A stretch of 64,000 nucleotides of DNA from Gammaproteobacteria bacterium (lineage in GTDB: Bacteria; Pseudomonadota; Gammaproteobacteria; DASZBR01). Location: contig DASZBR010000002.1 in the NCBI GenBank assembly GCA_035943935.1, positions 90,868-154,867 of the forward strand, given 5' to 3'. The position numbers were made by a program, and so were the translations under genes. The first letter of the stretch is position 1. Each line of letters opens with the position of its first letter. This document shows positions 37,078 to 42,726 of the stretch, one piece after another. Under the pieces are notes generated by a model, which saw only the letters and a list, made by a program, of their open reading frames with translations, searched no databases and was not told the DNA's origin.

Positions 37078-37941
37078 TCATCCCTTCAACACCTCCCCCC
37101 AACACGACAAAAGCTTCATCAAGGTTATTTCAGTATCTTTCGGAATCATCAGTTTTTGATCAATATCTTGTAAGGAAGCTGTTTCAGGCTCTAACAGCAA
37201 AATCACTTCACACGGCGCATGCGGACCATTCATAAATAAAAGAGACTGATCAGACCAATACACTTTCCAGTGTCTATATCGATGCCCTAAAACAGATTCC
37301 AATAATTGCAGCCAAAAGATTACTGTCGGAATAAATAAATTTTCATTACACGGTAACGGTAATTTTAAGCTCTTAGACTCTCCCTGTATAAGCGCTTTTA
37401 TTTTTTGAGTGACCACATTCAGCCATATTTCCAGGGGAATTTCTGTAGGAATCGCCTCCCAAAATTCGTGCAGCTTAATTTGACTTAACGACTGAATAAT
37501 TTCTTCCAACATACTGCGACGCGAAAGCTTGTGATTCACCCATCGAATATCTTCAATATTTTTATAAATTTCAGGTAACGTTTTATTAGAACCTAATTGC
37601 TTGATTAAACGCTGCATGGCAAAAAAAGTCTCGCGATACACCCACGGAATAAAACTCACAAACTCTCTGGCGAGGGGATGTTCCAATACGCGCAGCATGC
37701 CAAAATCGCGAGTAATCACGCCAATCATCGGTTCTTGTGATTCCGTTTCAGATGCGCTCAAAAAATGGATAGGCGAAAATTGTTTGGGGGAACTTGCGTA
37801 AAATTCTTGCAAGAAAAGTTCGAATTCTGCACCTGCGCCCAGTGAAACGTGATAGCGCAAATCATGACCGAGTGCGGCAATTAAATCATTGTGATATGAC
37901 CAACTGTAGGGGTCACGGTTTTTGCGGATAAAATTCATCAT
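37078..37941 (-). CDS. Hypothetical protein in the tagF position downstream of tssM (possible TagF-like or detached TssM C-terminal segment)
   Basis: Track ORF 37078..38058 starts inside the tssM 3' end. The likely start is the Met pair at 37941/37938 with an AGGAA RBS. Gene order matches fha-tssJ-tssK-tssL-tssM-tagF operons. Only weak FG..DFV-like similarity to TagF. Confidence 0.35.
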   Translation of the reverse strand: MMNFIRKNRDPYSWSYHNDLIAALGHDLRYHVSLGAGAEFELFLQEFYASSPKQFSPIHFLSASETESQEPMIGVITRDFGMLRVLEHPLAREFVSFIPWVYRETFFAMQRLIKQLGSNKTLPEIYKNIEDIRWVNHKLSRRSMLEEIIQSLSQIKLHEFWEAIPTEIPLEIWLNVVTQKIKALIQGESKSLKLPLPCNENLFIPTVIFWLQLLESVLGHRYRHWKVYWSDQSLLFMNGPHAPCEVILLLEPETASLQDIDQKLMIPKDTEITLMKLLSCWGEVLKG

Positions 37942-37996
37942 AAGTCTATTCCTATTATTAAAAACAACCTCACCCGGGCGGGCTAATATCCCTCCC

Positions 37997-41015: not shown

Positions 41016-42307
41016 TATTCACCCTCTTCTACTGTCAATAACTCAATCTGCGCAGCTGAAAAAATATGCGAAACAAAAATCGATAAGGTTTGTTCTGTTT
41101 TAATTTGCTCCCAAAAATGACCATTGGGTTCTATATAAAAATATTCATAGCCGGCTTTGATAGGCAACCGGTCTGGCGGTCGCTGAATATGAATTAATTT
41201 CACTCCCGTCAGCGCAGAGGCAACAATAGATTCAATGACCGATCGCGCGCCGATTTTAATTTGTGCCGTAAATAACGACAGCCATTCCATCACTGGTACG
41301 TTCATCGTAACGGCTACATAAAAACTATTTTTTTTAAACACGTGGCTATCCAAATGTTCGGCGGTATATAAAAATTCGGTTTCACGTACCCAGGTGAGAC
41401 ACGACATTCTGGAAGGAATCGCATGATCGACTCCCTGTTTAAGCAAGCTATCAAGTTCATAGAATATTTTAGTCAGATTATTGTGGTCATAACTCGGCAA
41501 GGGGTTTTCAGGATTCAGCGCGCCGATTAACCGAATCAGCACTTTATAAAATTCGAGAGGATGTAATTGGCTGCACGATTTCAGGATATTTATTTCAGAT
41601 AACGCCGTATTGAATAATTGAAGTAAAACAAAATCTTGCCATTCGGTGCGAGACTGTTTGCGGCGTGATTGCAATAAGCTGGCTTTTGACGATATCAACT
41701 CACTGTGTGTGCTGAGCAAATCCATCAAGACATCTGATGCGGACAAAAAAAGACAGCTGGGAATAAATGATTTCTCAAGGGCATATTCACCAATATTTTT
41801 CTTAACGACGTCGGCTATTTTGAGGGCATAAAATAAATTCTTATCTTCTTTGGAGGTTAATAAGCAGAGATTTGGATGCGCGAACAACACTTCGCGCTCA
41901 CGCTCTAAATCTTGTTCATCCAATACCGTCTGATATTCACCCTTCCATCCGGATAATCCACTCTGACTGGGATAGCCTGTAATATCTTTAATATGATCTG
42001 AAAGTGGGACGGCGAGATAAACCGACTCACGATTTTCATGCGCTGCGGTAAATTCAGTGCTGAGAGGGAGATTGACACGACTGTCATACTGAATAATCAA
42101 ACCATGCGGAAAAATGATTTCACAATATTTAATAATCAACTTGCCATAGGACAGATTTTCTTCATCCCACATAAGCTTTTTAATTCCCCACGGATAGGGT
42201 GAAGCTAATTTTGCTAAAAAATCTTGGCGTGCATGATGGTAATCATCAAATTGCTGTAAATGTTGTTGCCCCAATAAAACACCTTCTGCCCACACGACTT
42301 TTTTCAT
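41015..42307 (-). CDS. tssK: Type VI secretion baseplate subunit TssK
   Basis: N-terminus MKKVVWAEGVLLGQQHLQQFDDY matches the TssK hallmark (V-W-x-EG-x-L-x-P/Q-QH-x-QQ-x-D). 430 aa. Confidence 0.8.
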   Translation of the reverse strand: MKKVVWAEGVLLGQQHLQQFDDYHHARQDFLAKLASPYPWGIKKLMWDEENLSYGKLIIKYCEIIFPHGLIIQYDSRVNLPLSTEFTAAHENRESVYLAVPLSDHIKDITGYPSQSGLSGWKGEYQTVLDEQDLEREREVLFAHPNLCLLTSKEDKNLFYALKIADVVKKNIGEYALEKSFIPSCLFLSASDVLMDLLSTHSELISSKASLLQSRRKQSRTEWQDFVLLQLFNTALSEINILKSCSQLHPLEFYKVLIRLIGALNPENPLPSYDHNNLTKIFYELDSLLKQGVDHAIPSRMSCLTWVRETEFLYTAEHLDSHVFKKNSFYVAVTMNVPVMEWLSLFTAQIKIGARSVIESIVASALTGVKLIHIQRPPDRLPIKAGYEYFYIEPNGHFWEQIKTEQTLSIFVSHIFSAAQIELLTVEEGE

Positions 42308-42726
42308 GAGGTGATCCTGTTACCCGATAACGTCAGCGTTGAAAACCACCATGGCATCGGCGTAATCACGCGCCATTGGTTATGGTAAGGATGACGAAAT
42401 AAGGCAACGGCGCCTAAATATTGCGCAGACGATTGTTTGGGAATGGAGACATGCAGCGTTGTACCGGGAACGACGGTATATTCCTGCCGACTTACCAGGT
42501 TTTCGCCTAATACTTTTTTATCGTCGTGCCACAACTCTCGAAACGTCGCATCGGAAAAACCTTCAGGATTTTTAAGGGTGTAAACGCGAACCACAACAGG
42601 CAAAGCACCGTAATAGGCATCACGATTAAGATGTTTTTGGGCAGTAATATCAAGTTTAATGGAGGAAAAACTGCAACTGGAGAGAAAACAACTGAAGATA
42701 ATAACTGCAATTTTCTTACTATTCAT
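42304..42726 (-). CDS. tssJ: TssJ-like outer-membrane lipoprotein
   Basis: Signal peptide with lipobox (FLSSCSF). About 140 aa. Translationally coupled to tssK. Confidence 0.6.
   Translation of the reverse strand: MNSKKIAVIIFSCFLSSCSFSSIKLDITAQKHLNRDAYYGALPVVVRVYTLKNPEGFSDATFRELWHDDKKVLGENLVSRQEYTVVPGTTLHVSIPKQSSAQYLGAVALFRHPYHNQWRVITPMPWWFSTLTLSGNRITS

What the first reader, a model, noticed from the sequence alone, without database searches (positions are those of the whole stretch)
37078..42726. Orphan type VI secretion membrane-complex/baseplate module (tssJ-tssK-tssL-tssM plus tagF-position gene) with no sheath, tube, spike or ATPase genes within 20 kb
Four translationally coupled minus-strand genes carry family hallmarks. 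TssJ is a lipoprotein. TssK has the N-terminal V-W-x-EG-x-L-x-QH-x-QQ motif. TssL is a DotU family member with C-terminal TM. TssM has a Walker A motif and a large periplasmic domain. The gene order (J-K-L-M-tagF-like) matches canonical T6SS-i operons such as P. aeruginosa H1. None of tssA/B/C/E/F/G, hcp, vgrG or clpV is present in the window. IcmF and DotU homologues occur in Dot/Icm T4B systems, but TssK and TssJ do not, so this is not simply a Dot/Icm sub-cluster. In a genome that otherwise looks like a PmrA/Dot-Icm-using Legionellales member, a T6SS-derived module is unexpected. It may be a split-locus T6SS, a decaying remnant next to an IS element, or a repurposed membrane complex.
Basis: partly seen in the sequence, partly recalled or inferred. 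Interest (0 to 1): 0.8.

Follow-up and report, generated by a model that had tools for sequence, protein, structure and literature searches.

The report
Membrane half of a scattered T6SS
These five genes are a real, well-preserved envelope-anchoring part of a bacterial type VI injection machine in an uncultured Coxiella-like bacterium. It is not truly orphan, because the spike-toxin gene lies elsewhere in the same genome, but its main membrane protein is unusually shortened.

Summary
Window 37078-42726 (minus strand) encodes TssJ, TssK, TssL, a short TssM (789 aa) and a diverged TagF. No other T6SS gene occurs anywhere in the 64 kb window.

"Orphan" holds only locally. The same five-gene block sits at the same syntenic site in at least five diverged relatives, one of them labelled Coxiellaceae. 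All copies are intact, with dN/dS of about 0.1-0.2 although synonymous sites are saturated, so it is not a decaying remnant.

A sister lineage has full-length TssM, TagF, TssA and VgrG at this site. A canonical relative has J-K-L-M-TagF-TssA-TssB-TssC-Hcp-TssE in one row.

Three clade genomes, including the window's own MAG, encode a ~1070 aa VgrG at a second conserved locus next to yidC/rnpA. It is fused to a DUF900 hydrolase effector with an invariant AHSLG motif. A conserved 94 aa membrane protein follows it.

The best reading is the membrane-complex operon of a scattered, streamlined T6SS. Sheath, tube and wedge genes could not be searched genome-wide, and no TssA was found, so a sheath-less derivative is not excluded.

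The clade-specific TssM lacks the N-terminal transmembrane hairpin, the DTAG motif and about 260 residues. That architecture is rare among 1.84 billion cluster representatives.

The parts
42304..42726 (-). tssJ: outer-membrane lipoprotein (140 aa, lipobox LSSC18)
   Evidence: PF12790 8.8e-29 and TIGR03352 above its cutoff. Matches EAEC TssJ 6ixh/3rx9 at about 2e-13. The SCSFS lipobox region is conserved in relatives.
41015..42307 (-). tssK: baseplate-to-membrane-complex adaptor (430 aa)
   Evidence: PF05936 3e-92 and TIGR03353 300.8 bits. Matches PDB TssK 5y0e at 3.5e-33 over its full length. The N-terminal motif is invariant and both termini are the most conserved parts.
40356..41015 (-). tssL: DotU-family, C-tail-anchored inner-membrane protein (219 aa)
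   Evidence: PF09850 2.5e-49 and TIGR03349 above its cutoff. Single hydrophobic segment at 176-194. Matches PDB 6y4r, 4v3i and 3u66.
37997..40366 (-). Short tssM (789 aa): cytoplasmic P-loop domain, one TM (~254-272), and a reduced periplasmic domain with an intact TssJ-binding C-terminus. It lacks the TM1-TM2 hairpin and the DTAG motif.
   Evidence: Pfam IcmF-related_N, IcmF-related and IcmF_C hits; TIGR03348 below its cutoff. Alignment to the 1088 aa L010 TssM with a deletion map. C-terminal residues 655-785 align to EAEC TssM 977-1106. The architecture is rare among the best 150 hits in 1.84 billion cluster representatives.
37078..37941 (-). Diverged tagF orthologue (287 aa)
   Evidence: 31% identity and E=1e-37 to the L010 TagF, which hits PF09867 at 7e-14. 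It occupies the same position after tssM in all relatives. It has no direct Pfam, NCBIfam or PDB-sequence hit.
35757..37037 (+). IS481-like insertion sequence (transposase 35821-36981) that bounds the module. It is not part of the module and marks a synteny breakpoint.
   Evidence: rve, rve_3 and HTH domains. 49 nt inverted repeats at 35757-35805 and 36989-37037. SpoU, NfeD, Band_7, FAD-oxidase and AnmK, which follow tagF in relatives, are absent from the window. The Logan contigs break here.

Best explanation
The five genes are the membrane-complex and adaptor operon (tssJ-tssK-tssL-tssM-tagF) of a type VI secretion system whose genes have been scattered around the chromosome and streamlined in an uncultured Coxiellaceae-like (Legionellales) clade.

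How it most likely works, by analogy with characterised T6SSi systems (all steps inferred):
- TssJ is lipid-anchored in the outer membrane and binds the conserved C-terminal domain of TssM.
- The short, single-pass TssM and the tail-anchored TssL form the envelope-spanning channel.
- TssK trimers dock a baseplate onto the cytoplasmic faces of TssL and TssM.
- TagF acts as a post-translational brake on assembly.
- The payload is a VgrG spike fused to a DUF900-type alpha/beta-hydrolase, encoded at a second locus next to yidC/rnpA. The 94 aa membrane protein that follows it is probably its immunity partner.

Shown here: the gene identities, their conservation and purifying selection, the ancestral fuller locus, the VgrG-effector in the same genomes, and the derived TssM architecture.

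Not shown: that sheath, tube and wedge genes (tssB/C, hcp, tssE/F/G) exist elsewhere in the genome, and that the system fires.
For: 1. HMM identification of J, K, L and M, and transitive identification of TagF.

2. The same block lies at the same site, after InositolP-Ldh-ABC permease-ABC ATPase-MarC, in L005, L008, L012 and L021.

3. All five genes are intact. Within the clade dN/dS is 0.09-0.24 while dS exceeds 1.2. Amino-acid identity is 52-78%, against 83-94% for the flanking housekeeping genes.

4. Locus history:
- The canonical relative Flocculibacter collagenilyticus has J-K-L-M(1230 aa)-TagF-TssA-TssB-TssC-Hcp-TssE in one row.
- The sister lineages L010/L015 and the P0012 locus have J-K-L-M(1088/1115 aa)-TagF-TssA, with or without VgrG, at the same syntenic site as the window.

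5. A ~1070 aa VgrG occurs in the same assemblies as the module:
- P0135 in GCA_033763845.1.
- P0130 in GCA_964559315.1.
- P0125 in SRR12377062. Its accession HEV2614947.1 lies about 1,570 numbers from the window TssK, HEV2613381.1.
- All sit at a conserved locus next to Pro_CA-yidC-yidD-rnpA-rpmH.

6. VgrG residues 649-1060 are 33% identical (E=3e-65) to the outgroup's separate DUF900 effector. AHSLG is invariant in six homologues. A translationally coupled 94 aa hydrophobic ORF is 66-68% conserved.

7. The two ends of TssK, which bind partners in characterised systems, are its most conserved regions.

8. A partial, multi-locus T6SS has been reported in another Legionellales-related symbiont (10.64898/2026.04.11.717937).
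Against: - No tssB, tssC, hcp, tssE/F/G, clpV or tssA was found in the 64 kb window, in about 20 kb around each module copy, or in about 20 kb around each VgrG copy.
- A database search with the sister lineage's TssA returned 28 hits, none from a clade assembly.
- The outgroup's direct TssA-VgrG adjacency is what a clean deletion of the tssB...clpV block would leave.
- TssM has lost its TM hairpin, its DTAG (Walker B/G3) motif and about 260 residues. This could mean relaxed or altered function.
- The whole MAGs could not be searched with these tools.
Confidence: 0.6

Rival explanations
1. Sheath-less derivative. The clade, and perhaps its sister lineage, has lost the contractile part (TssA/B/C, Hcp, TssE/F/G, ClpV). 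It keeps TssJ-L-M, TssK, TagF and the VgrG-hydrolase as a non-contractile envelope device, for example a static export or anchoring complex for the VgrG-effector.
For: - No contractile-part gene is seen in any held sequence.
- No clade TssA was found in the database search.
- The TssA-VgrG adjacency in the outgroup is the footprint expected from deletion of the tssB...clpV block in the canonical order.
- TssM is remodelled in a consistent way across the clade, yet remains under purifying selection.
Against: - No T6SS-derived system is known to work without a sheath and tube (own knowledge).
- TssK's only known role is to link the TssF/G wedge to the membrane complex, and its N-terminal interface motif is invariant.
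- VgrG keeps conserved gp27/gp5 core residues.
- The negative evidence covers only a small fraction of each genome.
- The TssA search depends on shared 5-residue words at about 30% identity.
Confidence: 0.13
2. Decaying remnant of a lost T6SS, stranded next to an IS element.
For: - An IS481-like element abuts the module, and synteny with relatives ends there.
- TssA and VgrG were lost from this site.
- TssM is shortened.
- A more distant relative, L019, shows a fragmented tssM.
Against: - All five ORFs are intact in the window, L005, L008 and L012 although dS exceeds 1.2, with dN/dS of 0.09-0.24. The fifth lineage, L021, shows the same block up to the end of its contig.
- Start/stop overlaps are conserved.
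- The TssM deletions are in-frame and shared by all four clade members analysed.
- The IS lies outside the coding sequence.
Confidence: 0.03
3. IcmF/DotU-type accessory pair of a Dot/Icm type IVB system rather than T6SS parts.
For: - TssL nominally passes the NCBIfam IcmH_DotU_IVB cutoff (64.8 bits against 50).
- The clade is Legionellales-like, an order in which Dot/Icm is near-universal (PMC8896642).
Against: - The IcmF_IVB model scores 67.9 bits against a cutoff of 1000, while the T6SS TssM model scores 228.9.
- The generic DotU/TssL model scores 153.7 bits, above the IVB-specific model.
- The genes are translationally coupled to TssJ and TssK, which are T6SS-specific.
- The locus is orthologous to canonical T6SS clusters.
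- No Dot/Icm gene is in the window.
Confidence: 0.02

Closest known systems
Canonical collinear T6SSi cluster of Flocculibacter collagenilyticus (CP059888; locus L020) and related Alteromonadales and Halorhodospira clusters
   Same: Same order J-K-L-M-TagF. TssK is 34% identical. These are the nearest named relatives in the TssK search.
   Different: There, TssM is 1230 aa with the N-terminal hairpin, TagF is recognised by Pfam, and TssA-TssB-TssC-Hcp-TssE follow directly. In the window clade none of these follow, and TssM is 773-840 aa.
Pseudomonas aeruginosa H1-T6SS tssJ1-tssK1-tssL1-tssM1-tagF1 (PA0080-PA0076)
   Same: Same gene order, including TagF after TssM (own knowledge). PA0080 (TssJ1, PDB 3zhn) is a detectable homologue at 9.6e-07.
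   Different: H1 is a single locus with fha, ppkA/pppA and the tssA-B-C-hcp-E-F-G-clpV-vgrG operon adjacent (own knowledge). No Fha or kinase/phosphatase gene is seen here. The subtype was not determined by phylogeny.
EAEC Sci-1 TssJ-TssL-TssM membrane complex (PDB 6ixh, 6hs7, 4y7m, 3rx9, 3u66) and TssK (5m30)
   Same: The TssJ fold region, the TssM C-terminal TssJ-binding domain (655-785 aligned to 977-1106), the TssL cytoplasmic domain and TssK all match at the sequence level.
   Different: EAEC TssM is 1129 aa and has three TM segments (own knowledge). The window TssM has one predicted TM and matches only through its C-terminal domain in phmmer.
Sister-lineage locus in MAG CAVQJZ01 (MFD02832.bin.3.194; L010/L015)
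   Same: Same chromosomal site and flanking genes. TssK is 45-47% identical. The TagF and the DUF900 effector are orthologous.
   Different: It has a full-length TssM (1088 aa, three hydrophobic segments, DTAG present). TssA, VgrG and a separate DUF900 effector lie in the same locus.
Partial multi-locus T6SS of 'Ca. Centrionella anaeramoebae' (UBA12402, Legionellales-related)
   Same: A host-associated Legionellales-type genome with T6SS genes spread over three loci and several core genes undetected (10.64898/2026.04.11.717937).
   Different: It is a different lineage, and that report lists TssB/C, Hcp and TssF/G as present.
Dot/Icm IcmF-DotU (IcmH)
   Same: Homologous protein families (IcmF and DotU domains).
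   Different: The T4BSS-specific IcmF model is far below its cutoff, and the genes are linked to TssJ and TssK.

Membership tests
T6SS membrane complex (TssJ-TssL-TssM) | TssJ: outer-membrane lipoprotein of the SciN/VasD family | tested here: met
   PF12790 8.8e-29. TIGR03352 equivalog 93.6 bits, above its cutoff of 31.6. Lipobox LSSC.
T6SS membrane complex (TssJ-TssL-TssM) | TssL: DotU-family cytoplasmic domain with a C-terminal TM anchor | tested here: met
   PF09850 2.5e-49. TIGR03349 153.7 bits, above 89.95. One hydrophobic segment at 176-194.
T6SS membrane complex (TssJ-TssL-TssM) | TssM: IcmF-family domains, including the C-terminal TssJ-binding domain | tested here: met
   PF14331, PF06761 and PF06744 are all above their gathering scores. 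The C-terminus aligns to EAEC TssM 977-1106.
T6SS membrane complex (TssJ-TssL-TssM) | TssM: full-length equivalog (NCBIfam TIGR03348) with the N-terminal TM1-TM2 hairpin and a three-TM topology | tested here: not met
   228.9 bits against a cutoff of 388.15, and the match starts at model position 93. L010 residues 10-91 are absent. Only one hydrophobic segment is predicted (Kyte-Doolittle scan only).
T6SS membrane complex (TssJ-TssL-TssM) | TssM NTPase motifs: Walker A, and Walker B/G3 (DxxG) | tested here: inconclusive
   Walker A (GPxxSGKS) is kept in all four clade copies. The DTAG motif present in the outgroup is deleted in all four. Own knowledge: NTPase activity is not required in every T6SS.
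T6SS baseplate adaptor TssK | Full-length VasE/ImpJ family protein with the conserved N-terminal motif | tested here: met
   PF05936 3e-92 covering profile positions 1-429 of 429. TIGR03353 300.8 bits, above 100. Matches PDB 5y0e over residues 3-422. The motif is invariant.
TagF (T6SS-associated regulator) | Match to Pfam TagF_N (PF09867) | tested here: not met
   No hit for the window protein or the three other clade orthologues, even at E<=10.
TagF (T6SS-associated regulator) | Homology and positional orthology to a recognised TagF | tested here: met
   31% identity and E=1e-37 to the L010 protein, which hits TagF_N at 7e-14. It holds the same position after tssM in all loci. The structural test failed: the single-sequence AF2 model had pLDDT 39.8.
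Complete T6SSi (13 core components) | VgrG spike encoded in the same genome | tested here: met
   P0125 (HEV2614947.1) is in the same MAG as the window TssK (HEV2613381.1). P0135 and P0130 are in the same assemblies as L008 and L012. Phage_GPD 1.3e-28, but TIGR03361 and TIGR01646 are below their cutoffs.
Complete T6SSi (13 core components) | TssB/TssC sheath, Hcp tube, TssE/F/G wedge and ClpV in the same genome | not testable with these tools
   They are absent from the window and from about 20 kb around each module copy and each VgrG copy.
Complete T6SSi (13 core components) | TssA in the same genome | tested here: inconclusive
   The search with the sister-lineage TssA gave 28 hits, none from a clade assembly. 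P0237 belongs to a different MAG. Sensitivity is limited by the need for shared 5-residue words.
Dot/Icm T4BSS IcmF/DotU | NCBIfam IcmF_IVB equivalog | tested here: not met
   67.9 bits against a cutoff of 1000.
Dot/Icm T4BSS IcmF/DotU | NCBIfam IcmH_DotU_IVB equivalog | tested here: inconclusive
   64.8 bits is nominally above the cutoff of 50, but well below the generic DotU/TssL model at 153.7 bits. The gene context is T6SS.

The most novel reading that the evidence does not exclude
A whole clade of Coxiellaceae-like bacteria has discarded the contractile sheath, tube, wedge and ClpV. For a long evolutionary time it has kept only a remodelled membrane complex (TssJ, TssL, and a hairpin-less TssM without the DTAG motif), TssK, TagF and a VgrG-hydrolase fusion. 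That would be a T6SS-derived, non-contractile envelope machine of a kind not described before.
Probability: 0.12. Interest if true: 0.85.

Novelty: new variant of a known kind. Interest (0 to 1): 0.45.

Why it matters
T6SS is rarely reported in Legionellales, which are known for the Dot/Icm type IVB system. Here a T6SS module has been vertically inherited and kept under selection in an uncultured Coxiellaceae-like clade, paired with a VgrG-lipase-like effector. That suggests these presumed intracellular bacteria also fight or manipulate neighbours by contact.

The clade-specific short TssM (no TM1-TM2 hairpin, no DTAG, about 260 residues fewer) is a natural minimised version of the largest membrane-complex subunit. 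It shows which parts of TssM evolution can dispense with.

The locus series runs from a collinear cluster, to J-K-L-M-TagF-TssA-VgrG, to J-K-L-M-TagF alone. It is a clear example of how a secretion-system cluster is fragmented in host-associated genomes.

If the contractile genes prove absent genome-wide, the finding becomes much more important.

Tried and rejected
- The first genome-contig scan, with the single TssK protein, found nothing. The organism's species is not among the GTDB representatives.
- A profile of the TagF-like proteins against PDB sequences gave only a spurious lectin hit.
- The AF2 model of the TagF-like protein from a single sequence was unusable (pLDDT 39.8), so no fold search was run.
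- The TssA database search gave no clade member.
- The nearest 'canonical' TssK relative that I looked up (L019) showed only J-K-L-fragmented M-TagF and no sheath genes, so it could not supply TssB/C queries.
- The metagenome scan with the TagF alignment added only one clade member and one distant canonical-length locus.
- The large ORFs with no family hit upstream of VgrG (601 aa in L016; 590, 781 and 818 aa in L023) were tested as possible diverged TssF or ClpV. They are not conserved between lineages and have no family hit.
- I considered a TssC search of the large databases and rejected it.
- I could not assign a T6SSi subtype because no reference phylogeny was available.
- Literature searches found no description of this clade's T6SS.
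Full report
**1. The observation**

ORF listing shows five co-directional minus-strand genes at 37078-42726. Pfam and NCBIfam identify the first four:

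| Gene | Coordinates | Pfam | NCBIfam |
|---|---|---|---|
| TssJ | 42304-42726 | PF12790, 8.8e-29 | above equivalog cutoff |
| TssK | 41015-42307 | PF05936, 3e-92, full profile | above equivalog cutoff |
| TssL | 40356-41015 | DotU PF09850, 2.5e-49 | above its curated cutoff (TIGR03349, a subfamily-domain model) |
| TssM | 37997-40366 | IcmF-related_N, IcmF-related, IcmF_C | TIGR03348 229 bits, below the 388 cutoff |

The TssM match begins at model position 93 of the NCBIfam model. J/K, K/L and L/M overlap; the fifth gene follows a 55 nt gap. Gene callers start it at ATG 37941, giving 287 aa.

All four proteins match solved T6SS components at the sequence level.

Pfam scans of every other ORF of 150 aa or more found housekeeping genes: an ABC transporter, pgk, pyk, fba, the mraZ-mraW-ftsI-mur cluster, mutS, lgt, hemF, pyrG, acn, hemB and ppk. 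They also found an LRR protein, an Abi_2 protein, an IS481-like transposase and several ORFs with no hit. There was no T6SS gene and no Dot/Icm gene. tblastn with TssA, TssB, TssC, Hcp, partial TssE and VgrG found nothing in the window. So the local description is correct.

**2. Origin and relatives**

The exact TssK is on record as HEV2613381.1, 'MAG TPA ... Gammaproteobacteria bacterium', on a 157 kb contig. It also occurs in Logan assemblies of SRR12377062/66/71/72, whose contigs break at the IS.

The TssK search gave a graded series. Nine sequences are 54-100% identical, six are 43-49% identical, and the rest are canonical T6SS proteins at 41% or less. The nearest named ones are Alteromonadales and Halorhodospira. 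Legionella londiniensis TssK is only 27% identical.

Gene neighbourhoods show the module at one fixed chromosomal site: InositolP-(Ldh/Mdh)-ABC permease-ABC ATPase-small ORF-MarC, then J-K-L-M-X. SpoU follows X in L005, L008 and L012, where the sequence extends far enough to show it. This holds in:
- L005 (JGI),
- L008 (GCA_033763845.1),
- L012 (GCA_964559315.1, titled 'uncultured Coxiellaceae bacterium'),
- L021.

TssM is 773-840 aa and X is 287-290 aa in these. Coxiellaceae belongs to Legionellales.

**3. Locus history**

Two sister lineages at the same site (L010/L015 in MAG CAVQJZ01, and the P0012 locus) have a full-length TssM (1088 and 1115 aa), a Pfam-recognisable TagF and TssA. In L010, VgrG follows, then a RelE/HTH pair, a DUF900 hydrolase and a secreted 397 aa protein.

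A canonical relative, Flocculibacter collagenilyticus, has J-K-L-M(1230 aa)-TagF-TssA-TssB-TssC-Hcp-TssE in one row.

This suggests a sequence of steps:
- The ancestral state was a collinear cluster.
- The sister lineages already lack the tssB...clpV block at this site.
- The window clade has additionally lost TssA and VgrG from it.

**4. The fifth gene**

It has no direct family hit. It is 31% identical (E=1e-37) to the L010 TagF, which hits TagF_N at 7e-14. It is therefore a diverged TagF orthologue. Structural confirmation failed.

**5. Is it decaying?**

No. Between the window, L005, L008 and L012, synonymous sites are saturated (dS > 1.2), yet all five ORFs are intact. dN/dS is 0.09-0.24, which is an upper bound given the saturation. 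The proteins are 52-78% identical, against 83-94% for the flanking ABC, Ldh, permease and MarC genes. They evolve about four times faster but are clearly constrained.

The IS has 49 nt inverted repeats at 35757-35805 and 36989-37037. It ends 40 nt after the tagF stop codon and coincides with the end of synteny. SpoU, NfeD, Band_7, FAD-oxidase and AnmK are absent from the window. It is a rearrangement breakpoint, not a disruption.

**6. The short TssM**

The alignment with L010 shows that all four clade copies share these features:
- They lack residues 10-91 (the TM1-TM2 hairpin).
- They lack about 262 residues in 14 in-frame deletions, including 711-786 in the periplasmic domain.
- They keep the P-loop (GPxxSGKS).
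- They have lost the DTAG motif.
- They have one predicted TM.
- They retain a highly conserved C-terminal domain that aligns to the TssJ-binding domain of EAEC TssM.

In an exhaustive phmmer scan of 1.84 billion cluster representatives, only one other representative (P0263, 835 aa, 55% identity) shares this architecture. The next hit is the 1088 aa sister cluster. Nearly all other top hits are 1000-1250 aa with about 100 extra N-terminal residues. A few shorter hits (for example P0271 and P0385) were not examined and may be fragments.

**7. Not orphan genome-wide**

A search with the sister lineage's VgrG found a family of ~1070 aa VgrG proteins. Look-ups place them in the same assemblies as the module:

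| VgrG | Where found | Module in the same source |
|---|---|---|
| P0135 | GCA_033763845.1 (MDX2164658.1) | TssK MDX2164845.1 |
| P0130 | GCA_964559315.1 | L012 |
| P0125 | Logan SRR12377062; NCBI HEV2614947.1 | window TssK HEV2613381.1 |
| P0128 | a JGI sample whose contig names fall in the same Ga05580xx range as L005's | not tied to a module copy |

All lie at one conserved locus: VgrG, a 94-95 aa ORF, then Pro_CA-yidC-yidD-rnpA-rpmH.

VgrG residues 649-1060 are homologous (33% identity, E=3e-65) to the separate DUF900 effector of the sister lineage, so the clade carries a VgrG-effector fusion. The AHSLG nucleophile-elbow motif and much of the hydrolase domain are invariant in six homologues. 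The downstream ORF overlaps the VgrG stop codon, has three hydrophobic segments and is 66-68% conserved. It is a candidate immunity protein (inference).

**8. What could not be shown**

Sheath, tube, wedge, ClpV and TssA genes were not found in any held sequence. A TssA search returned no clade member.

There is one piece of indirect evidence for a surviving baseplate. In characterised systems the N-terminus of TssK contacts TssF/G and its C-terminal head contacts TssL/M (own knowledge). These are the best-conserved parts of the clade's TssK, at 75% and 70% identity against 49% for the neck, and the N-terminal motif is invariant.

**9. Verdict**

The most likely explanation (about 0.6) is the membrane-complex operon of a scattered, streamlined T6SS in a Coxiellaceae-like clade. 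It carries a derived short TssM, a diverged TagF and a VgrG-hydrolase payload at a second locus.

| Reading | Probability |
|---|---|
| Scattered, streamlined T6SS | ~0.6 |
| Sheath-less, repurposed derivative | ~0.12-0.13 |
| Decaying remnant | 0.03 |
| Dot/Icm accessory pair | 0.02 |

The sheath-less reading would be remarkable if true. The decay and Dot/Icm readings are effectively excluded.

Published work reports T6SS in restricted Legionella clades (10.1101/2024.10.21.619444) and a partial multi-locus T6SS in a Legionellales-related symbiont (10.64898/2026.04.11.717937). The kind of system is therefore known. The variant, meaning the TssM architecture, the degree of fragmentation and the lineage, is new.

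Noticed in passing
window 42830-42934 (-), with promoter-like site 42987-43016 and hairpins at 42960-42979 and about 42795-42820: A conserved small gene lies between marC and tssJ. It encodes a 34 aa, extremely basic Lys/Ala-rich peptide (MVKKRKPVKKAAKKVAKKTTRRKVGRPKKAKSKR). It has its own promoter-like site, a 5' hairpin, an RBS and a terminator-like hairpin. It is present in the window, L005, L008, L012 and the sister lineage L010. Its relation to the T6SS is unknown; it resembles a histone-H1-like tail.
   Followed up: partly
L016 5807-6091; L017 13209-13493; L018 13212-13493; L023 13213-13500: A 94-95 aa protein with three hydrophobic segments overlaps the stop codon of the VgrG-DUF900 fusion gene. 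It is 66-68% conserved and has no family hit. It is a candidate immunity protein.
   Followed up: partly
window 35757-37037: An IS481-like element with 49 nt inverted repeats. The Logan assemblies break here, so it is probably multi-copy. It coincides with the loss of synteny with all relatives: SpoU-NfeD-Band_7-FAD oxidase-AnmK are missing.
   Followed up: yes
window 17823-18794: A 323 aa protein whose only Pfam hit is a plant F-box-associated LRR family (PF24758, 3.4e-10). It is a eukaryotic-like repeat protein of the type common among Legionellales effectors.
   Followed up: no
window 12107-14227, 32020-33663, 34882-35766, 49286-50857, 50944-52245: Five sizeable ORFs (294-706 aa) have no Pfam hit. 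The homologue of 49286-50857 is conserved at the same position in relatives. They may be lineage-specific effectors.
   Followed up: no
window 33823-34791: An Abi_2 (abortive-infection-like) protein lies just beyond the IS, in the segment not syntenic with relatives.
   Followed up: no
L019 12500-16000: In a more distant relative (ENA ERZ25039493 contig_130361) tssM is split into at least five short ORFs between intact tssL and tagF. This is either a genuine pseudogene or indel errors in the assembly.
   Followed up: no
L017 17851-19719; L018 19506-21377: A eukaryotic-like Ser/Thr protein kinase (622-623 aa, Pkinase) lies about 4-6 kb downstream of the VgrG locus in two clade MAGs.
   Followed up: no
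window 1-2576: There is no ORF of 150 aa or more and no Rfam hit in the first 2.5 kb. This may be an ORF running off the window edge, or non-coding or degraded sequence.
   Followed up: no
window 27261-28182: Two adjacent receiver-domain proteins (130 aa and 184 aa, Response_reg) have no DNA-binding output domain.
   Followed up: no
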